Positions 20,271 to 46,063 of a DNA stretch of 64,000 bases are shown in pieces. The position numbers and the translations under genes were made by a program. Positions within the stretch are counted from its first letter, which is position 1. Each line of letters starts with the position of its first letter. This DNA comes from Euglena gracilis (taxonomy: Eukaryota), in the NCBI GenBank assembly GCA_039621445.1, contig CP154954.1:10187521-10251520 (forward strand). The letters run 5' to 3'. The notes under the pieces were generated by a model. The model was not told the DNA's origin, made no database searches, and was given only the letters and a program-made list of their open reading frames with translations.

Positions 20271-21169
20271 GGTCGGGCCCTTGTTTGGTCACTGCCAGAA
20301 GCTCACCCGTCACACTTTCCGGAGGTGGAGGGAGTGTGTTTTGCAATTAAATCAGACAGTCAGGGAATTCTGAAAAAAAAGAAAAATCGAGCACCGGAGG
20401 GCTTCCACCAGTTGACCTTGGCCGTATCACCCCAATTACGTTGAGACCCCGTTGTACCCGCATGGGAGGAAAAGCGATGTTGCTTTGCACATTTGCAAAA
20501 GGATCCACTTTAAAGCCTCCTGTGCCAGCCTGCTCGGAGCCGGAACATGTGGTGTAATTGTGATATTATCTCTCCTGCCCCCCCCCCCAATAGAAGCACG
20601 GGTGCGCCTAGGACCACTCGGGGCAGACAGAAATGTTTGTGGAAAGGATGCCCGGCACCATACCACACAGCAATAGGAATAATCCCCCACAAAAGCGCGG
20701 GGCCGCGACAAGCACAAGGTCCCCCAGCCACCAAAGGCGGCGGCCTGATACAAGCGCACCCCCCAATTGAAGGGATTTCTCAAGGAAATCAACAAAATCG
20801 CCCAGGTGGAGTCCAAATAGAAGCGCACTTCCCGCTGCCGGAGGCGGCAGCCCGCTATAACCACTTGAATGGTCAATTACGCGAGTGCACCCTGAGGCCT
20901 TCACAGTGTGCTCCTGAAAATGCGGGAAGAGGTGGTGGGGGGGTCGACCCCCCCCCACCCACCATGAAGGGGGGGGGTCGACCCCCCGCAAATACGGAAG
21001 CCTGACTGGAATCAATACCGTGACCCGAATCAGAATCACTGGCATCCTCACAACAGCAACAAAGGAATATTTCCTTGCCGACGCAAAAAAAAAGTATATG
21101 GTGACAATCTAGACGGTCCGAACACCCCCTGTTCATTGGGCAAGGGTGTTCATTGGGCTTGGGGGGGGG

Positions 21170-21707
21170 TATGTATGTATGTATGTATGTATGTATGTAT
21201 GTATGTATGTATGTATGTATGTATGTATGTATGTATGTATGTATGTATGTATGTATGTATGTATGTATGTATGTATGTATGTATGTATGTATGTATGTAT
21301 GTATGTACGTACGTACGTACGTACGTACGTACGTACGTACGTACGTACGTACGTATGTATGTATGTATGTATGTATGTATGTATGTATGTATGTATGTAT
21401 GTATGTATGTATGTATGTATGTATGTATGTATGTATGTATGTATGTATGTATGTATGTATGTATGTATGTATGTATGTATGTATGTATGTATGTATGTAT
21501 GTATGTATGTATGTATGTATGTATGTATGTATGTATGTATGTATGTATGCATGCCTGTATGTATGCATGTATGCATGTATGTATGTATGTATGTATGTAT
21601 GTATGTATGTATGTATGTATGTATGTATGTATGTATGTGTGTATGTATGTATGTATGTATGTACGTACGTACGTGCGTGCTTGCGTGCGTGCGTGCGTGT
21701 GTGCGTG

Positions 21708-21763
<56 letters not shown>

Positions 21764-21979
21764 TATGCATGAATGTATGTATGTATGTATGTATGTATGT
21801 ATGTATGTATGTATGTATGTATGTATGTATGTATGTATGTATGTATGTATGTATGTATGCATGCATGTATGTATGCATGTATGCATGTATGTATGTATGT
21901 ATGTATGTATGTATGTATGTATGTATGTATGTATGTATGTATGTACGTACGTACGTGCGTGCTTGCGTGCGTGCGTGCG

Positions 21980-22053
<74 letters not shown>

Positions 22054-22452
22054 TATGCATGAATGTATGTATGTATGTATGTATGTATGTATGTATGTAT
22101 GTATGTATGTATGTATGTATGTATGTATGTATGTATGTATGTATGTATGTATGTATGTATGTATGTATGTATGTATGTATGTATGTATGTATGTATGTAT
22201 GTATGTATGTATGTATGTATGTATGTATGTCTGTATGTCTGTATGTATGTCTGTATGTATGTATGTATGTATGTCTGTTTGTGTGTCTGTCTGTGTGCAT
22301 GTATGTTTGTATGTATGCATGTATGTCTGTATGTATGTATGTCTGTATGTATGTATGCATGCATGCATGCATGCATGCATGCACGTATGTATGTATATGT
22401 ATGTATGTGTTTGTTTGTATGCATGTATGCATGTATGTATGTATGTATGTAT
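21170..22452. repeat. 1.3-kb compound (TATG)n/(TACG)n/(TG)n microsatellite with an internal block duplication
   Basis: Direct reading; explains the long HTYI/MYVC pseudo-ORFs. Confidence 0.95.
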
Positions 22453-26719: not shown

Positions 26720-29700
26720 ATGGCGGCAATTTCCGAGGTTTTCTTTACATCGCTCTTTTGCTTGCAACCTTGTTTTCCATGCAGGGGGAAATGCCCGATT
26801 CAGGTAGCACTGACCGCTTCCCGGTTATTGGTCCAGGAACAAACGCAATCTTTGCCATTCTCCCAAACAAAATCACTGGAATCGTGGAAATTCGCCGGTG
26901 AAGCGTCCCACGGGCGGCTCCCTCCAGAACATTGATGGTTCAGCGAGGTCAAACTGCACACTGCTGCCCGCAAAGTGGTCAGGGTTGGGTGGGGGGAGGA
27001 GGTCCGATATGGCCCGGAGTAACCCTAGCCCGCGTCGTCAGCCCACCCGAAAAACGCCCCGATTTCGCCCGAATTTTCCGATTTTGCCGTGAAAAAAAAA
27101 ATCCCGGGAAAATTGCGGGTCCCAAGGTGTTCTGAAATAGTTATGGGGTTGTTCCACCCTGCCGATGCCTTACGGGTTCCCCTGAACGGTTGGGAGCCCG
27201 AAAAAAAGGTTGCGCGGTGAAGGAGGTTCACGGTTATCCGTAAACATTCAAAAACAGAAGTTTACGGAGACCTTGAACTTGTTTACGGTTTCCCGCGGAC
27301 TTGTGCTGCTCCCCTCTTGTTTGTGAATGGGACCCGAACCTTGTCTCCAACCACCAGGAGCTGTGGTTATAGCCCTTTTGACCAGACATTAATTTTAGTG
27401 TGGTTCACAAAATACGTGTGAACCACAAATTTTTTTTTGGTGTCCACAGGTGAACCACAAAAAAATTTTTGGTGTCCACATGTGAATCACAATTTTTTTT
27501 TTGGTGTCCACAAGTGAACCACAAAAATTTTTTTGGTGTCCACAAAAAATTTTGTTGCCCACAAATCTTGATTGAGTATCGGAAAAAAATTAAGTTTTAC
27601 AACTAAAAGCGGATTGATCTTGAAAGACCTCAGCCAAATTGTCACCTTGGCTCCGGCTCAAACCATAAATTGTGGCAGCGAATCACACCCCCAGGCTTGT
27701 ATGGGAATCTCGGAGGGGGGGGGTGGGGGACCCCCCTCCAACATCAAATTTTTGGTCACCGAATCTCCTCAGTTTCCGGGTCGAAAAAATCGAAAAAATA
27801 GAAGCAAAGGGGTGTGGGGGGGGGGGTATGGGAGGGGGTCGCTGACCTCTTAACCTTTCAAAAAATTGCTGTAAGTAACCGTAAATTGCAGGGGTGTATT
27901 TTCAAATTATGAAATTTGCAATGCCAGTCTTTTCGGACATCCATTACGTGCAAGTCCCATAAAGAGCTCAACACTATTCAAACCTGGTACCCCCCCAGTT
28001 TCGGAAGGGGGGTCCCCCACCCCTCCTCCTCTGCGGAGGAAAAAAAAATCTTCCGGCGCAAAGCGCCGGGTGTGTATTTTAGGACCCTCTTGAGGCTCAA
28101 TATGAAAATTTGCACTCAAATGCATGGGTTCCGGGCCAAAACCGGGGGGGGGTGGGGGGGGGGCGGCGGGGGGGGGGTCGAAAACACACACATTTTCGGT
28201 TCAAAAAAAGTTCTTCCGGCTCCGGGAAACATCGTTTCGGGCAAAATTTTTTTCGATTTTTTTTCGAATTTTTCGACCTTTTTTCGACCCAAAAATGGCT
28301 AAATCAAAACAGGCCAAAACTGTCAAAATGGCCCAAATTGGCTGAAAAATGGCCGTAACTCGGGCTGGGCGGTGAGTTGCAGGAAATCAAATACCTTTCC
28401 TTTGACTCCCCACCATTTTCGAGAACTTTTGGGGAAATCGATTATTTGACTCAAACGTTTGGTGTCCACATGTGAACCACAAATATTTTTTTGGTGTCCA
28501 CAGGTGAACCACAAAAAAAATTTTGGTGTCCACAGGTGAACCACAAAAAATTTTTTGGTGTCCACACGTGAACCACAAAAAAAATTTTGGTGTCCACAGT
28601 GAACCACAAAATGTCAACCTTGGTGTACCACACTAAATGAATGTCTGCTTTTGACCCAGCCCCCACCCCATATGTCCAATGCAACGTCTGAACATGGTCA
28701 CGGGTTTCCGTAAACTTGCTTTCTGAAATTATTTGTTATCGGTGCATCCCTTCCTAGTGGGGGCTTCTTAGAGGAGATTGAGCATGGAAAAGAAGCGTCT
28801 GCAAAGGAGCGAGTTAACCAAAAAAGTGTAAAGAAGTGTGTCAGGGTGCATCGGGTATGCCCTTTTCGTTTTTTAAGTGCACAACTGCATGACTCCGTGA
28901 CGCCCCTAAGTGCACAACTCCGTGACGTTCTTGAACAGCGCCGAATTCCTATCTGTCTTTAGGCTTCCCTTTTTTTGAAAGACCAATTGCCCGACCAACA
29001 GCTTTTAAAGGTTGGTGACGCTCCGGAGGAGGGGATTTCTTCGTCTGCCCCTGCTGTACGCGTTTTGGTGTGACGCGTGCACCACGTCAAACTCCAGCAG
29101 CCAAACTCACACTCAACACGCAGTTGGCCTGTTCCTTTGTGCATTTGCGCAAAAAAAACGGTGTTCGTGAAAGTCCCGTTTTTTTTTTCGGACCCGAAAA
29201 GCGGCCCCCAAAAGTGCCCCCCCCCCCCCCCCGGGCTCCAGGGGTGGGTAACTTTGGTGGCGGCCGCTGGCCGACCACCCGTGGTTGGGGGGCCACCGTC
29301 CTCTGCTGCCAACCCGCCAAAGGACGACGAGCCCCCACGCTTCCTCTACCTTGTCCAGGGCCGGACCTTCGCGGAGCAGTTGCGGTACTCCGACAACGGA
29401 GACGCGCTCTGCCTCACGTGGGGCAGCCCGGTCTCCTTCTGCGTGCACCGGCGTGACTGGCGTGAGAATTATTAACCAGTGATTTGCCAATTGGGGATGG
29501 GGGATGAGATGAGTCCCGGCTTGACCCCCCCCCCTACAGGGGTTTTGGCATCAGTTTAAAGAAAAGCTCATTCTGGTTATCCCACGATGAAGCTACATTG
29601 CTACACAACTTTTTTTTGAGGTTCCTGAATATCCCCACCTGCTTTCAACCAAGGTTGAAGTTGCCTCAGGCAAAAACAGAGCGTAACCCCTTTCCACGAC

Positions 29701-40389: not shown

Positions 40390-40454
<65 letters not shown>

Positions 40455-40778
40455 CACACACACACACACACACACACACCCACACACACACACACACACA
40501 CCCCCACACACACACAACAACACACACACACACACAGAGAGGAGAGAGAGAGAGAGAGCGGCGAAGTTAGGGGGAGAGAGAGAGGGAATGACGGATGGAG
40601 ATGTTGAGATTGTAGAGAGAGCAAAGAGAGAGCATGAGAGAGAGAGAGGGAGAGACGAGAGAGAGAGAGCAGAGAGAGAGAGGAGAGAGAGAGAGAGAGT
40701 CGGAGAGTATTGGGTACACCGCAGGGTGCACGAGTCTCCCTGGCCTCGGCTCTAAGTTTCCAATTTTTTTGTTGTTTA

Positions 40779-42657
40779 AACGGGAAACGTGGTCAACCCA
40801 CAACGGGTTGAGGAGGAGCCGGAGCTCGCCCGTTTTTCTCAGAACGGGTCTGTCTCCCCTGCTTTTTTCAGAGCAGGTCGGCCCCCACGGCTCGTGCCCC
40901 GCGGCAGAAGCAAGGTCAAGCTCACCGACGCGGCATTCAAGACAGCTGTGGTCTGGAGAGAAGGGCGCTGGGGGACTCCACTGATGAGGCCCACCCCCAG
41001 GCAGCCCGGGCCGAAACCACCGAAGTCCCAAGTGGAAGAAGAGAGAGCTACACGGGAAACCGTGGTCACCCCACAACGGGTGAGGAGGAGCCGGAGCTCG
41101 CCCGTTTTTCTCAGAACGGGTCTGTCTCCCCTGCTTTTTTCAGAGCAGGTCGGCCCCCACGGCTCGTGCTGTGCGGCAGAAGCAAGGTCAAGCTCACCGA
41201 CGCGGCATTCAAGACAGCTGTGGTCTGGAGAGAAGGGCGCTGGGGGACTCCACTGATGAGGCCCACCCCCAGGCAGCCCGGGCCGAAACCACCGAAGTCC
41301 CAAGTGGAAGAAGAGAGAGCTACACGGGAAACCGTGGTCACCCCACAACGGGTGAGGAGGAGCCGGAGCTCGCCCGTTTTTCTCAGAACGGGTCTGTCTC
41401 CCCTGCTTTTTTCAGAGCAGGTCGGCCCCCACGGCTCGTGCCCCGCGGCAGAAGCAAGGTCAAGCTCACCGACGCGGCATTCAAGACAGCTGTGGTCTGG
41501 AGAGAAGGGCGCTGGGGGACTCCACTGATGAGGCCCACCCCCAGGCAGCCCGGGCCGAAACCACCGAAGTCCCAAGTGGAAGAAGAGAGAGCTACACGGG
41601 AAACCGTGGTCACCCCACAACGGGTGAGGAGGAGCCGGAGCTCGCCCGTTTTTCTCAGAACGGGTCTGTCTCCCCTGCTTTTTTCAGAGCAGGTCGGCCC
41701 CCACGGCTCGTGCCCCGCGGCAGAAGCAAGGTCAAGCTCACCGACGCGGCATTCAAGACAGCTGTGGTCTGGAGAGAAGGGCGCTGGGGGACTCCACTGA
41801 TGAGGCCCACCCCCAGGCAGCCCGGGCCGAAACCACCGAAGTCCCAAGTGGAAGAAGAGAGAGCTACACGGGAAACCGTGGTCACCCCACAACGGGTGAG
41901 GAGGAGCCGGAGCTCGCCCGTTTTTCTCAGAACGGGTCTGTCTCCCCTGCTTTTTTCAGAGCAGGTCGGCCCCCACGGCTCGTGCCCCGCGGCAGAAGCA
42001 AGGTCAAGCTCACCGACGCGGCATTCAAGACAGCTGTGGTCTGGAGAGAAGGGCGCTGGGGGACTCCACTGATGAGGCCCACCCCCAGGCAGCCCGGGCC
42101 GAAACCACCGAAGTCCCAAGTGGAAGAAGAGAGAGCTACACGGGAAACCGTGGTCACCCCACAACGGGTGAGGAGGAGCCGGAGCTCGCCCGTTTTTCTC
42201 AGAACGGGTCTGTCTCCCCTGCTTTTTTCAGAGCAGGTCGGCCCCCACGGCTCGTGCCCCGCGGCAGAAGCAAGGTCAAGCTCACCGACGCGGCATTCAA
42301 GACAGCTGTGGTCTGGAGAGAAGGGCGCTGGGGGACTCCACTGATGAGGCCCACCCCCAGGCAGCCCGGGCCGAAACCACCGAAGTCCCAAGTGGAAGAA
42401 GAGAGAGCTACACGGGAAACCGTGGTCACCCCACAACGGGTGAGGAGGAGCCGGAGCTCGCCCGTTTTTCTCAGAACGGGTCTGTCTCCCCTGCTTTTTT
42501 CAGAGCAGGTCGGCCCCCACGGCTCGTGCCCCGCGGCAGAAGCAAGGTCAAGCTCACCGACGCGGCATTCAAGACAGCTGTGGTCTGGAGAGAAGGGCGC
42601 TGGGGGACTCCACTGATGAGGCCCACCCCCAGGCAGCCCGGGCCGAAACCACCGAAG
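40779..42657 (+). repeat. 272-bp tandem array, ~6.9 near-identical units, retrozyme-like
   Basis: Period of 272 confirmed by motif positions; each unit carries a hammerhead ribozyme. Confidence 0.95.
40948..41020 (+). ncRNA. Type III hammerhead ribozyme (first of 7; others start at 41220, 41492, 41764, 42036, 42308, 42580)
   Basis: GTGGTC cleavage strand, stem I TGGAG/CTCCA, core CTGATGA, stem II GGCCC/GGGCC, GAAACCAC closing stem III. Confidence 0.92.
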
Positions 42658-43427
42658 CCAAGCACGAGCGGCGCTGTCCGCGGAGACCACCCTAAACCAC
42701 CTCTGCCGGGCACGGAGACTGCCATCCTGCCCGTCATGCGGTACCAGAGACGAGGTGTACCACGCCGACGGGGCCCTGGGGTGTGGGGGCTCCCATTTTT
42801 CTGGAACACCTGGAAAAATGGACTGGCGAGACCCCCCCCCTCCCCCCCCCCCCCATGGGGGCTTGGGGGTCCTCCCGACTGGAACAAATTTTTCTTCCGG
42901 TAGCTGTGCGCGAGGTGGAAAATGAGGTTTTAATGTGTTTTTGGCTGATTTGGTCTAAAAACCCTAAAAAATGTCCAAAAATGGTCAGTTTTGGCGTTTC
43001 GGGGTGGGGTCCAATAATTTCGTGCCCGTCATGCGGGTACCAGAACGAGGTGTACCACGCCGACGGGGCCCTGGGGGGTGGGGGGCTCGCCGGCGGTGGC
43101 ATCCCCGGGCCCCCGGGCCCTGGCGCGGGGTCCGGGGGTGGCGTGAAAGGCGTGCGGAGCCCATGGGGGGAGCGCCGCCCCCCCAGCACGCACGCACGCA
43201 CGGGGACCGCCACACACCCACCAGCAGGCAAGGGAGGGGGGAGGGGGAAGGGGCAGCCCAGCGCGCCAGACAGACGGGCAGCCACCGGAGGACCGGAGGC
43301 CAAGGGAGGGGGGAGGGGGAAAGGGAAGGGGCAGCCCAGTGTGCCAGACAGACGGGCAGCCACCGGGGGACAGGAGGCCAAGGGAGGGGGGAGGGGGAAA
43401 GGGAAAGGCAAGGGAAACCCACGTGGT

Positions 43428-43565
<138 letters not shown>

Positions 43566-46063
43566 ACCAGGCTATTGCTTAAGGACCCCGGGGGTCCATG
43601 AGCTAGCCATTTTGCTGGACACTGGAAAAAATGGACTGGCGAGACCCCCCCCCCCCAGGGGGGGCGTTGGGGGTCCTCCCGACTGGAACAAATTTTCTTC
43701 CGGTGCTGTGCGCGGAGGTGGAAATGAGGTTTTAATGTGTTTTTGGCTGATTTTGGTCTAAAAACCCTAAAAATGGCCAAAAATGGGCAGTTTTGGCGTT
43801 TCGGGGGGGTCCAAATAAATTTCGGCGCTTCTAACATAGTAGTAATCCTGTGGTGCACCTTTGGGGTTGGCCATGGGCTTCGTAATACTTGCCCGCCTGT
43901 GTGCAGAAGGGGGGGGGCAATTGCACGGGGCTGCTGGATCAAACCGGCCGTCGACTTCTGCCCTCTTTCACGGACGTCTGTTTTCCGCCCTGCGCGTATG
44001 CCGCCCGCCCTCTTCCCCGCCGACTGCAGGGCGGCCCCCAGTCCCGCGCCGGCCGCCAACGCTGGGGCCCAGCCCCCCCACCCCCCCCCCCCCCCCCGCT
44101 GGCCGGCCGCCGCGGCGCCGGTCCCCCCGGAGGCCAGACCTCTCTGTTGCGGCCCGGGGTGCCCCCTAGGGGTGGTCCCCGGGGGGAGGGGGGGGGTGGG
44201 TGTGGGGGGGGCCGGCGGGGCCCCCCCCCCCCCCCCGGCTGCCTGGGGGGTCCCCCCAGGGGGGGTGGGATACTTTCGAGGCCGAAGGCGCCAATTTTTT
44301 TTGAAAAAGGTGCTATTTTTGGCATTTTCGCGATTTTTGGCCATTTTCGGGGGAAATGGAGTGGGTCCCCTGGGACCCCCCCTGGGTCCCCCCCAGGGGG
44401 TGGGTGGGGGGGGGGGACCCCCACCATCTTAAAAATGCCCCTGATTGCGGCCCCAGGGCTGTGCGGGAATCCTGCCATTATCAATGCCACCCCCCCTTGG
44501 GGGGTCTCTGCTTGGGTCGGGTTGAATTCGGTACTGTCATCAGTTGTCCCCCCCCCCCCAGGGGGAAACACCTGGGCTGCACGGGAAAGCCTGGTGGGAG
44601 GGTCATCCACCCAGGAGGTGGGGGGTCGGACCCACGACCCATAAGTTAGCCCAAGTGGCCAGCCCTCCCTCTGCAAAGTGCGGCTGAGAATTTTTTCAAA
44701 AAATGGTGGTTTGGGGGTCTTGGTGTTGGCGCGTTCTTTTTTTTGAGATGGTTGTTTGTGTGTTTGAAAGAGGTTTTTTTTTTGGCATTTGTGCAACGTG
44801 GGATTCCGAAGTCCAGCCTACCTTTGGCCCAGCATCCAGCAGCCGCCACCCTCCCCGTCCCCCCTGGGGAGCCAAACCAGCCCAAATCTCTAGCTCCAGC
44901 CCAGCAACCCCATGGTCTCAAAGAGATGTCCGCAGAGGACTGCCTCTACGCTGTACTTTCCACGGACACCTCAAAAAGCATTGCTGGAGGACTTCCCGAG
45001 CCCCATTAAGTGTGCACACTGAAAAGGTACCTGTTTGGATAGATGGGATTTCCCCTGCTGTTTTTTTCTTTTCCGGAAGTCGCCAATTTCTGCAACCGAC
45101 AAATGAGTTGACTAAGAGACGAAGACAGCTGCTATCGTTGTGGATGGGGAAGAGAGATAAGATTGGTTCCACAAATTTGGTGGCCAAAATGGTACAAATA
45201 CCTCCAGCAAAATCCTCACCGACCTATCACCATAGAACCTGTCACCTTTCTCTGTATTTTTATCGAAATTTCGACTTTTTCTCACCGAGAACGGATTTTG
45301 AAAGCGAAAAAGATGAGGGACCTCATTTTCAAGGGCTAGGTAGTGGACTTCCGCCTCAGCATCTATCTCTGTACTCGATGACCTGTCATCTAACAAATTC
45401 TTCTCAAAATTTGACACTTTCTCAGCAAGTGGAAATTTGAAGGGGAAAAGTTGGAAGAACGGGACCGCCACAAGCGCGGGGTCTACGACAAGCGTACCTC
45501 CCTTTTCGATGGGGAGGAAATCAACAAAAAAACTACACAGGTGGGGACCAAATAGAATCGCACCCCCTGCCGACCTGCCCCCGCCCCTCCAAATTAGGTC
45601 CCCATTCGTGAGGGAGACCAACTAGAGGGGCTGAGCGACTACCCTCCGTTCCACTTATTTTTGTGTGACATCATTCCACAGTTTTCGCGTGGTGAAAAAA
45701 ATGATTTTTTTTTGAGAACTATATCGGGGCTTAGTCGGGTGCCTACCCCACGGGGGGGGGTGCTAGGCAAGCATCCCATAGCACCCGATCCGACTCCCGA
45801 TACCCCGGGGGGTAGGGTTTTGGGGGGTGCCTGCCCCTAGCAGGCACCCCCCTCCGACCCTGGCGCCGGGGGTCCGGAAAAGGCCATTTTCAATGAAAAT
45901 TTTCTGGGTCCCCCCCCCCGCCCCCTATCCCCCCCGGGGGGGGGGGTGCCTGCTAGGGGCAGGCACCCTATAGCACCCACCCCCCTCCCCCCAGTTGGCA
46001 AGCACAAGCATGGTGTGTGTGTGTGTGTGTGTGTATGGGCGTTCATGTGCGTGCGTGTGCGCC

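What the first reader, a model, noticed from the sequence alone, without database searches (positions are those of the whole stretch)
40779..42657. Tandem array of seven type III hammerhead ribozymes: a retrozyme-like system in a probable euglenid
Seen: each 272-bp unit contains GTGGTC^TGGAG-loop-CTCCA CTGATGA GGCCC-loop-GGGCC GAAACCAC. This is the full conserved core (CUGAUGA, GAAA, GUC site) with three perfect stems. Predicted cuts fall after 40953, 41225, 41497, 41769, 42041, 42313 and 42585. Units are almost identical and the array stops 5 nt after the last ribozyme. Established: retrozymes are non-autonomous retroelements whose tandem hammerheads release monomers that circularise; animal tandem forms typically use type I and plant LTR forms type III. 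Inference: transcription yields six 272-nt monomers, and the array is an integrated rolling-circle reverse transcript. I do not know of a type III tandem non-LTR form in euglenids, but cannot verify novelty.
Basis: partly seen in the sequence, partly recalled or inferred. Interest (0 to 1): 0.95.

Follow-up and report, generated by a model that had tools for sequence, protein, structure and literature searches.

The report
Tandem hammerhead ribozyme repeat, retrozyme-like
A 272-base DNA unit repeated seven times head-to-tail carries a complete self-cutting hammerhead RNA motif in every copy, and near-identical RNA turns up in environmental RNA libraries, so it looks like a genome-encoded source of small, probably circular, RNAs of a known general kind in an unusual combination of features.

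Summary
A 272-bp unit is repeated 6.9 times at 40780-42657, and all 7 copies carry a full type III hammerhead: GUC cleavage site, CUGAUGA, GAAA and three perfect 5-bp stems. Shuffled controls never produced such a motif. Rfam names Hammerhead_3 as the best family, but below its gathering score (24.1 against 48.5 bits), because both capping loops are unusually long (17 and 15 nt). These loops are strongly complementary to each other, which suggests either a stabilising pseudoknot or an on/off switch.

No ribozyme was found on the other strand. The array has no LTRs or target-site duplication, and the window holds no reverse transcriptase or any recognisable gene. Contigs that close on themselves (272+30 and 275+30 nt), 96-99% identical to the unit, occur in a probable RNA run of the organism and in a wastewater metatranscriptome. 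Contigs from root and leaf-litter metatranscriptomes also match, and the root contig spans the unit junction.

Best reading: a genome-encoded, retrozyme-like hammerhead repeat whose transcripts cut themselves into 272-nt monomers. Circularisation and retrotransposition are inferred, not shown. The euglenid origin could not be tested. It combines a type III ribozyme with a short, LTR-less, GC-rich tandem array, a pairing absent from the published retrozyme classes I read.

The parts
40780..42657 (+). Tandem array: 272-bp unit, 6.9 copies, GC 63.6%
   Evidence: TRF; unit comparison; GC
40948..41020 (+). Hammerhead 1 (73 nt); predicted cut after 40953
   Evidence: descriptor scan; motif search
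41220..41292 (+). Hammerhead 2; cut after 41225. Helix III 41220-41224/41288-41292, C17 41225, helix I 41226-41230/41248-41252, loop 1 41231-41247, CUGAUGA 41253-41259, helix II 41260-41264/41280-41284, loop 2 41265-41279, GAA 41285-41287
   Evidence: Rfam Hammerhead_3 at 24.1 bits, E 0.0017 in a 101-nt search
41492..41564 (+). Hammerhead 3; cut after 41497
41764..41836 (+). Hammerhead 4; cut after 41769
42036..42108 (+). Hammerhead 5; cut after 42041
42308..42380 (+). Hammerhead 6; cut after 42313
42580..42652 (+). Hammerhead 7; cut after 42585; the array ends 5 nt later
41231..41279 (+). Loop 1 (17 nt) and loop 2 (15 nt), mutually complementary: 7 perfect Watson-Crick pairs CUGGGGG/CCCCCAG, about 12 pairs with bulges, duplex -22.8 kcal/mol. 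Candidate pseudoknot or conformational switch; the same holds in every unit
   Evidence: 37 of 20,000 loop shuffles give a duplex as stable
41152..41225 (+). Hairpin domain just 5' of the cleavage site. It holds nearly all the sequence variation seen among the array units and the environmental RNA contigs; the predicted hairpin is kept in all four forms
   Evidence: variant table; folds at -24.2 to -28.3 kcal/mol
41306..41319 (+). 14-nt purine tract GGAAGAAGAGAGAG. The two ends of the array fall on either side of this tract; the 26 nt missing from a whole number of units contain it
   Evidence: read; significance unknown
41311..41354 (+). 44-nt segment (56 nt from 41299 in one contig) also present, with 5-8 differences, in longer RNA-library contigs (902, 922 and 1597 nt) that continue into sequence not found in this window

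Best explanation
The array is a genome-encoded tandem repeat in which every 272-nt unit carries one functional type III hammerhead ribozyme on the + strand. Inferred mechanism: transcription across the array gives a multimeric RNA. Each hammerhead folds (helices I, II and III of 5 bp each around the CUGAUGA/GAA core) and cuts after GUC, releasing 272-nt monomers with 5'-OH and 2',3'-cyclic phosphate ends. A host RtcB-type RNA ligase then closes them into small, branched circular RNAs, as shown for animal retrozymes. The long complementary loops 1 and 2 either form a Watson-Crick pseudoknot that holds stems I and II together in the active fold, or form an alternative extended hairpin that switches the ribozyme off in the mature RNA. 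Shown here: the motif, its statistical significance, its restriction to one polarity, and the presence of unit-length head-to-tail sequence in RNA libraries. Inferred: cleavage, circularity, and any spread through reverse transcription by an RT supplied in trans. My confidence that it is a genuine hammerhead is about 0.9, that monomeric or circular RNA forms in vivo about 0.7, and that it is retrotransposed about 0.4.
For: All core nucleotides and three 5-bp stems are present in 7 of 7 units. No equivalent motif appeared in 38.4 Mb of shuffled window or in 20,000 shuffled units at stems >=5 bp. Hammerhead_3 is the top Rfam family, with the whole core aligned (24.1 bits, E 0.0017). The loop 1-loop 2 complementarity exceeds composition chance (37 of 20,000 shuffles); such pseudoknots are reported for about 40% of hammerheads of all types and matter for fast cleavage (PMC3088659 passages). 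No ribozyme family matched the minus strand or the rest of the unit. Closing contigs of 302 nt (272+30) in run X7 and 305 nt (275+30) in wastewater metatranscriptome X15, a junction-spanning contig in root metatranscriptome X17, and a 250-nt contig at depth 51 in leaf-litter metatranscriptome X16 are all 96-99% identical to the unit, and none has a difference inside the hammerhead. The monomer folds better than shuffles (z -2.05 linear; z -2.4 circular, 65% paired and branched). Unit size and copy number match tandem retrozymes (PMC7229834 passages).
Against: The Rfam score is half the gathering score, and the family was missed entirely in the whole-window and 2.1-kb searches. The minimum-energy nested fold of the ribozyme segment is not the hammerhead (-30.6 against -17.6 kcal/mol) and is no better than shuffles (z +0.6). 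No covariation evidence exists: the only relatives found are 96-99% identical and invariant in the ribozyme, and the collection scans gave only unrelated hammerheads. Contigs cannot tell a circle from a tandem multimer, nor give strand or RNA ends. The RNA status of X7 is a guess, and DNA carry-over in RNA libraries cannot be excluded. Only one array was seen. No TSD, LTR, PBS or RT was found, so nothing here shows mobility.
Confidence: 0.6

Rival explanations
1. It is an ordinary satellite or tandem repeat that happens to carry an active hammerhead. It is transcribed and self-processed, but amplified only by DNA-level mechanisms (unequal crossing-over, replication slippage), with no reverse transcription and no function for the RNA.
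For: Five internal units are 100% identical and the edges are more diverged, as expected from DNA-level homogenisation. There is only one array in 64 kb. No TSD, LTR or RT was found.
Against: Fragments of the unit occur in other, longer RNA-library contigs whose flanks are absent from this window, which hints at other loci. Near-identical unit-length sequence was assembled from three metatranscriptomes of three studies, which is unlikely for a silent single-locus satellite of a rare eukaryote. The classical 'satellites with hammerheads' of newts were later re-read as retrozymes (PMC7229834 passages).
Confidence: 0.25
2. It is an endogenised DNA copy of an RNA replicon: a viroid-like or satellite circular RNA of about 272-276 nt that replicates RNA-to-RNA (asymmetric rolling circle) in a protist or with a helper virus. 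It would have been captured into the genome once by reverse transcription, like the carnation retroviroid CarSV.
For: Closing contigs of 272-275 nt occur in environmental RNA libraries (wastewater, with supporting contigs from root and leaf litter), with clustered sequence heterogeneity. Thousands of orphan circular RNAs with a ribozyme in only one polarity are reported from metatranscriptomes: 10,181 ribozyme-bearing circles, of which 3,434 are symmetric (preprint 10.1101/2022.07.19.500677, passages). The fold is branched and 65% paired, like such agents.
Against: There is a ribozyme in one polarity only. The same leaf-litter library also holds contigs that match the organism's other transcripts next to the unit fragment, so the host lineage itself is present there. 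The unit is found with all sampled words in 14 runs carrying five organism labels, including three DNA runs marked as possible sources of this DNA, which fits a fixed genomic element.
Confidence: 0.1
3. The hammerhead look-alike is inactive: a chance or decayed motif locked in the more stable loop-loop hairpin, so the repeat is just transcribed repetitive DNA.
For: The alternative nested fold is 13 kcal/mol more stable than the nested hammerhead fold. The Rfam score is below gathering. There is no covariation.
Against: The complete core plus 15 perfect stem pairs never arose in the shuffles. The loop pairing is compatible with all three stems if it forms as a pseudoknot. The ribozyme is invariant in all relatives seen, while the neighbouring domain varies.
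Confidence: 0.05

Closest known systems
Non-LTR (tandem) retrozymes of animals: newt satellite 2, coral, mussel and axolotl repeats (Cervera & de la Pena 2020, PMC7229834; passages read)
   Same: Short tandem units within the 150-450 bp range, many copies head-to-tail, one hammerhead per unit in one polarity, no LTR and no coding capacity, and a predicted self-paired small RNA of 170-400 nt.
   Different: Those carry type I hammerheads, often with a weak helix III that acts as a dimer, and have GC below 50%. Here the ribozyme is type III with a stable 5-bp helix III, and GC is 63.6%. The host looks like a repeat-rich non-animal eukaryote, but it was not identified.
LTR retrozymes of flowering plants (Cervera et al. 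2016, PMC4918200; passages read)
   Same: Type III hammerhead, GC above 55%, non-coding, branched RNA.
   Different: Plant elements have the ribozyme inside ~350-bp LTRs, 2 to at most 4 hammerheads spaced 400-1000 bp apart, a tRNA primer-binding site, a polypurine tract and 4-bp TSDs. Here there are 7 hammerheads 272 bp apart, and no LTR, TSD or recognisable PBS.
Pseudoknot-stabilised hammerheads (Perreault et al. 2011, PMC3088659) and the type III variants with pseudoknots in HDV-like circular RNAs (PMC7761336)
   Same: Watson-Crick pairing between the loops or tails of stems I and II.
   Different: The potential pairing here is unusually long (7 perfect pairs, about 12 in all) and lies between two large loops. 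It could equally act as an off-switch. This was not tested.
Orphan viroid-like circular RNAs with a ribozyme in one polarity from metatranscriptomes (preprint 10.1101/2022.07.19.500677), and the retroviroid CarSV
   Same: Size class, hammerhead type III, branched fold, presence in environmental RNA libraries. CarSV also has a DNA form.
   Different: Here a chromosomal tandem array is the evident template. CarSV has hammerheads in both polarities (as stated in the preprint's introduction); this unit has one.
Tandem hammerhead copies noted in Chlamydomonas, Selaginella and oomycetes (mentioned in PMC5680766; the cited 2010 survey is not held)
   Same: Hammerhead repeats outside flowering plants and animals, regarded as putative retrozymes.
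   Different: Only a one-sentence mention was available to me. Unit sizes, ribozyme type and RNA evidence for those cases could not be compared.

Membership tests
Hammerhead ribozyme, type III (Rfam RF00008) | Conserved core: C3 U4 G5 A6 N7 G8 A9, G12 A13 A14, the A15.1-U16.1 pair, and H17 at the cleavage site | tested here: met
   CUGAUGA, GAA, A/U closing pair and GUC are present in 7 of 7 units
Hammerhead ribozyme, type III (Rfam RF00008) | Three helices around the core, with helices I and II capped by loops and helix III open | tested here: met
   5/5/5 perfect base pairs; loops of 17 and 15 nt; helix III is closed by the other 199 nt of the unit
Hammerhead ribozyme, type III (Rfam RF00008) | Score at or above Rfam's gathering threshold (48.5 bits) | tested here: not met
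   24.1 bits, E 0.0017 in a 101-nt search; no hit in the 64-kb or 2.1-kb searches. The alignment shows the loss comes from the loop insertions, not from the core
Hammerhead ribozyme, type III (Rfam RF00008) | Stem covariation among homologues | tested here: inconclusive
   Relatives in 4 runs show no change in the ribozyme. The 7 loci from the collection scans are unrelated hammerheads
Hammerhead ribozyme, type III (Rfam RF00008) | Mg2+-dependent self-cleavage at H17 | not testable with these tools
   Needs in vitro transcription
Non-LTR (tandem) retrozymes | Tandem units of about 150-450 bp, each with one hammerhead, and no LTRs | tested here: met
   272 bp x 6.9 copies; no bracketing direct repeats
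Non-LTR (tandem) retrozymes | Type I hammerhead (used as the defining criterion in preprint 10.64898/2026.07.22.740005) | tested here: not met
   Type III topology
Non-LTR (tandem) retrozymes | Low GC (<50%) | tested here: not met
   63.6%
Non-LTR (tandem) retrozymes | [quoted passage not shown] | tested here: inconclusive
   Self-closing contigs in a probable RNA run and in one metatranscriptome, plus a junction-spanning contig in another; contigs cannot prove circles or RNA ends
Non-LTR (tandem) retrozymes | Many dispersed genomic copies; coexistence with an autonomous RT element (Penelope-like) | not testable with these tools
   No genome is held. Within the window there is one array and no RT among the 150 longest ORFs that passed a low-complexity filter, of 303 ORFs >=100 aa
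LTR retrozymes of plants | Hammerheads embedded in ~350-bp LTRs that flank a 600-1000 nt region, with PBS, PPT and a 4-bp TSD | tested here: not met
   No LTRs or TSD. A 14-nt purine tract exists (41306-41319), but I recognised no tRNA-complementary site
Avsunviroid-like or retroviroid circular RNAs | Self-cleaving ribozymes in both polarities | tested here: not met
   Descriptor scan: 0 on the minus strand. Rfam short-stretch searches of the whole unit on both strands gave only noise at E>1

The most novel reading that the evidence does not exclude
This is the founding example of a third retrozyme architecture: short, LTR-less, GC-rich tandem units with a pseudoknotted type III hammerhead, living in a protist (possibly a euglenid). 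Its small circular RNA would be abundant enough to be assembled from wastewater, root and leaf-litter metatranscriptomes. It would then give a cellular DNA origin and a host to part of the thousands of orphan 'viroid-like' circles that carry a ribozyme in only one polarity, and would link the plant (type III) and animal (tandem) retrozyme lineages.
Probability: 0.35. Interest if true: 0.65.

Novelty: new variant of a known kind. Interest (0 to 1): 0.5.

Why it matters
Retrozymes are currently divided into two classes: plant LTR elements with type III hammerheads, and animal tandem elements with type I hammerheads. An element that combines the animal-style layout with a plant- or viroid-style ribozyme, in what seems to be neither a plant nor an animal, bears on two questions. 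One is where retrozymes and hammerhead viroids came from. The other is whether ribozyme type and mobilising machinery are really coupled. It also shows that an apparently 'viroid-like' circular contig in environmental RNA data can have a chromosomal template, which matters for reading metatranscriptome surveys. If the RNA circularises efficiently, a compact 73-nt ribozyme with a designed-looking loop-loop clamp could be useful for making circular RNA.

Tried and rejected
1. Whole-window and 2.1-kb Rfam searches found nothing. This turned out to be a filter and insertion effect, because a 101-nt search recovers Hammerhead_3.
2. No genome is held for the window, so copy number, dispersal and an RT partner could not be examined.
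3. The scan's earlier findings held nothing for this genome or sequence. The hammerhead notes from other genomes did not bear on this case.
4. Scans of metagenome and viral contigs used a pattern that fixed only the core and inner stem pairs. They returned 7 loci, all unrelated hammerheads without similarity to the unit, so there was no covariation data.
5. Pfam was run on 10 long ORFs and then on the 150 longest ORFs that passed a low-complexity filter (of 303 ORFs >=100 aa). The only match was a low-complexity Atrophin-1 hit in 2 of 150, so there is no RT and no gene to place the organism.
6. A short euglenid spliced-leader tail motif, recalled from memory, gave 2 one-mismatch hits against 0.15 expected, and 1 of 100 shuffles reached 2. 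This is not evidence either way.
7. The flanks of the longer contigs that share 41311-41354 were sought in the window: 0 hits.
8. The bacterial-type promoter/terminator scan is irrelevant to a eukaryote and was ignored.
9. I considered a second, permuted hammerhead around GGGAAACCGUGGUC (41326-41339). I rejected it because there is no second CUGANGA box.
10. I considered a tRNA primer-binding site at TGGTCACCCC or TGGAAGAAG. I rejected it by eye because the implied acceptor stems would start with C or A. This was not tested with a tool.
Full report
**1. The observation**

Tandem Repeats Finder reports one array at 40780-42657 with period 272, 6.9 copies, 99% matches and no indels. Cut from cleavage site to cleavage site, the five internal units are identical. 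The unit 40954-41225 differs at 41170-41172, and the first ~50 nt of the array carry a few changes.

Every unit contains GUGGUC/UGGAG-(17 nt)-CUCCA-CUGAUGA-GGCCC-(15 nt)-GGGCC-GAA-ACCAC. The pattern CTGATGA..GAAAC occurs 7 times against 0.19 expected.

I wrote a descriptor for type III hammerheads: CUGANGA, GAAA, U16.1/A15.1, a non-G at position 17, and three stems. On both strands of the window it finds exactly these seven sites, each with 5/5/5 perfect pairs, and nothing else even at 3-bp stems.

In 300 dinucleotide shuffles of the window (38.4 Mb scanned) there were 0 hits with all stems >=4 bp and 9 with >=3 bp. In 20,000 shuffles of the unit there were 0 hits at >=5 bp and 1 at >=4 bp.

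**2. Is it a hammerhead by the curated model?**

Rfam gave no match at gathering scores on the whole window, and none at E<=10 on 2.1 kb. On a 101-nt stretch, where the filters are laxer, Hammerhead_3 (RF00008) is the top family at 24.1 bits, E 0.0017. All core positions and the stems are aligned, and the score is lost in two long loop insertions. The gathering score is 48.5 bits, so the formal threshold is not met.

The rest of the unit and the minus strand give only noise at E>1, and the descriptor finds nothing on the minus strand. The ribozyme is therefore present in one polarity only.

**3. The loops**

Loop 1 (AGAAGGGCGCUGGGGGA) and loop 2 (ACCCCCAGGCAGCCC) can pair over 7 perfect and about 12 total base pairs, with a duplex energy of -22.8 kcal/mol. 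Only 37 of 20,000 composition-preserving shuffles do as well in energy; 575 of 20,000 reach a 7-bp perfect run.

Because of this pairing, the nested minimum-energy fold of the 73-nt segment is an extended hairpin (-30.6 kcal/mol) and not the hammerhead (-17.6), and the segment folds no better than shuffles (z +0.6). Two readings fit.

- **Pseudoknot.** It would clamp stems I and II in the active fold. Perreault et al. 2011 report this for about 40% of hammerheads of all three types and show it is needed for fast cleavage (PMC3088659, passages). Type III variants with pseudoknots are also mentioned for HDV-like circles (PMC7761336, passage).
- **Alternative inactive conformation.** It would protect the mature RNA from re-cleavage. 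That avsunviroids behave this way is my recollection, not something from a call.

An unrelated metagenomic hammerhead (L003, L004, L006) has the same architecture: 17- and 16-nt loops with 6+3 complementary bases, and 82 of 20,000 shuffles as stable. This shows the layout recurs.

**4. Surroundings**

The array lies between CA/GA microsatellites (40390-40699) and an ~800-bp duplicated block that is entirely downstream. No direct repeats bracket it, and no target-site duplication is visible. The window contains no other copy of the unit; the best stray blast match has E 0.12.

Ten long ORFs have no Pfam family. Neither do the 150 longest ORFs that passed a low-complexity filter (of 303 ORFs >=100 aa), apart from a low-complexity Atrophin-1 match in 2 of 150. 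So the window has no reverse transcriptase and no gene that places the organism. Rfam found no RNA genes at its gathering scores.

The two array ends fall on either side of a 14-nt purine tract (41306-41319). The 26 nt missing from a whole number of units contain this tract. I cannot say whether that is meaningful.

**5. RNA evidence**

The 272-nt unit is held with all sampled words in 14 runs under five coded organism labels, and partly (0.22-0.52 of words) in six metatranscriptomes from wastewater, leaf litter, root and soil. I laid four runs on one unit.

- **X7** (RNA by guess) has a 302-nt contig that wraps around the unit (272+30).
- **X15** (wastewater metatranscriptome) has a 305-nt wrapping contig (275+30), with 6 substitutions and 3 inserted bases.
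- **X17** (root metatranscriptome) has a 248-nt contig that spans the unit junction.
- **X16** (leaf-litter metatranscriptome) has a 250-nt contig at word depth 51, and a minor variant in which 31 nt at the junction are replaced by 7.

A contig of unit length plus 30 is what a k=31 assembler gives for a circle or a tandem multimer (the k value is my recollection). The data cannot separate the two, nor give strand or ends.

All differences lie in 41134-41201 plus 41324. None lies in the hammerhead where it is covered; X17 lacks 41246-41273. When the variants are applied in a script, the hairpin 41152-41225 is kept in all four forms (-24.2 to -28.3 kcal/mol), with the changes inside its stem. 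That is weak support for structural constraint.

Longer contigs (902 nt in X7; 922 and 1597 nt in X16) share only 41311-41354 (from 41299 in one contig), with 5-8 differences, and continue into sequence absent from this window. So fragments of the unit exist at other loci. The leaf-litter sample also contains a relative of the host itself, which favours a cellular origin over a free agent.

The monomer is stably folded: -117.2 kcal/mol linear (z -2.05), and -112.2 kcal/mol circular, 65% paired and branched (z -2.4).

**6. Mechanism**

Most likely, read-through transcription gives multimers, each hammerhead cuts after GUC, and 272-nt monomers with 5'-OH and 2',3'-cyclic phosphate ends are closed by an RtcB-type ligase. 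RtcB closed animal retrozyme RNAs in vitro at >80% and ~30% for the two RNAs tested, against 1-3% self-ligation (PMC7229834 passages).

Whether the circles are then reverse-transcribed by an RT supplied in trans and re-integrated as tandem cDNA, as in the retrozyme model (PMC4918200 passages), is not addressed by any result here.

**7. Comparison with what is known**

By the published dichotomy, LTR retrozymes have type III ribozymes and occur in plants, while non-LTR tandem retrozymes have type I ribozymes and occur in animals (preprint 10.64898/2026.07.22.740005, passages; PMC7229834). This element matches neither.

- It has the animal layout: a 272-bp unit, 7 ribozymes, no LTR.
- It has a type III ribozyme with a stable helix III, and 63.6% GC.
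- Plant type III repeats have at most 4 hammerheads, 400-1000 bp apart (PMC4918200).

Perreault et al. note that repeat-associated eukaryotic hammerheads are overwhelmingly type I. However, tandem hammerhead copies in Chlamydomonas, Selaginella and oomycetes were already mentioned as putative retrozymes (PMC5680766, passage). The 2010 survey behind that sentence is not held, and supplements were closed, so I cannot say how similar those cases are.

Full-text searches found nothing on natural ribozymes in euglenids: Euglena + hammerhead ribozyme (9 papers), Euglen + retrozyme (1 paper) and Euglen + self-cleaving (29 papers, 15 listed). I judged these from titles and abstracts only.

Metatranscriptome mining has reported 10,181 ribozyme-bearing circular RNAs, of which only 3,434 have ribozymes in both strands (preprint 10.1101/2022.07.19.500677, passages). 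The present array shows one way such one-sided circles can arise from chromosomal DNA.

**8. Verdict**

This is a genuine, complete hammerhead array, correctly spotted. It is retrozyme-like in layout, and RNA-library evidence is compatible with unit-length circles or multimers. It is a new combination of known features, not a new kind of system. Retrotransposition, circularity, in vitro activity and the euglenid host remain untested. Interest 0.5.

Noticed in passing
window 41100-41150: Two adjacent hairpins inside the unit have near-identical U-rich loops (stem-UUUUUCUCAGA-stem and stem-UUUUUUCAGA-stem). This looks like an internal duplication of a small structured module.
   Followed up: no
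window 41311-41354 versus contigs of runs X7 and X16: A 44-56-nt piece of the unit (the purine tract plus ACGGGAAACCGTGGTCACCCCACAACGGG) recurs with 5-8 differences in 902-, 922- and 1597-nt RNA-library contigs whose flanks are not in this window. It may come from a larger element that shares a module with the repeat.
   Followed up: partly
window 43232-43405: A 78-bp G/A-rich tandem repeat (2.2 copies). Its first 18 bases match the loose end of the 1597-nt leaf-litter contig that abuts the unit fragment, so this repeat and the unit may be neighbours at other loci too.
   Followed up: no
window 42830-44440: An ~800-bp direct duplication just downstream of the array (42842-43022 versus 43646-43824, 81-88%). 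The region 37.5-46.5 kb is also studded with C-run/G-run palindromes of the type CCCCCCCCCCCCAGGGGG (9 copies).
   Followed up: no
window 21169-22452: A very long (GTAT)n microsatellite of 321 copies. The window also has (GAAT)43, (ATATG)64, (ATGTAT)n arrays and several dinucleotide runs, and is extremely repeat-rich.
   Followed up: no
window 27417-27545 and 28458-28637: Two arrays, about 1 kb apart, of a 32-bp unit (GTGAACCACAAAAATTTTTTTGGTGTCCACAA and a permuted form).
   Followed up: no
whole window: No Pfam family in the 150 longest complexity-filtered stop-to-stop ORFs, apart from a low-complexity Atrophin-1 match in two. No Rfam family at gathering score, so no tRNA, rRNA or snRNA. All 64 kb appear gene-free or have exons too short to detect.
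   Followed up: partly
L003:4881-4948, L004:2669-2736, L006:2523-2590: Three overlapping metagenome contigs (98-99% identical) carry a single type III hammerhead with 17- and 16-nt loops that are complementary over 6+3 bases. This is the same large-loop, loop-pairing architecture as here, in an unrelated sequence of 41-45% GC.
   Followed up: partly
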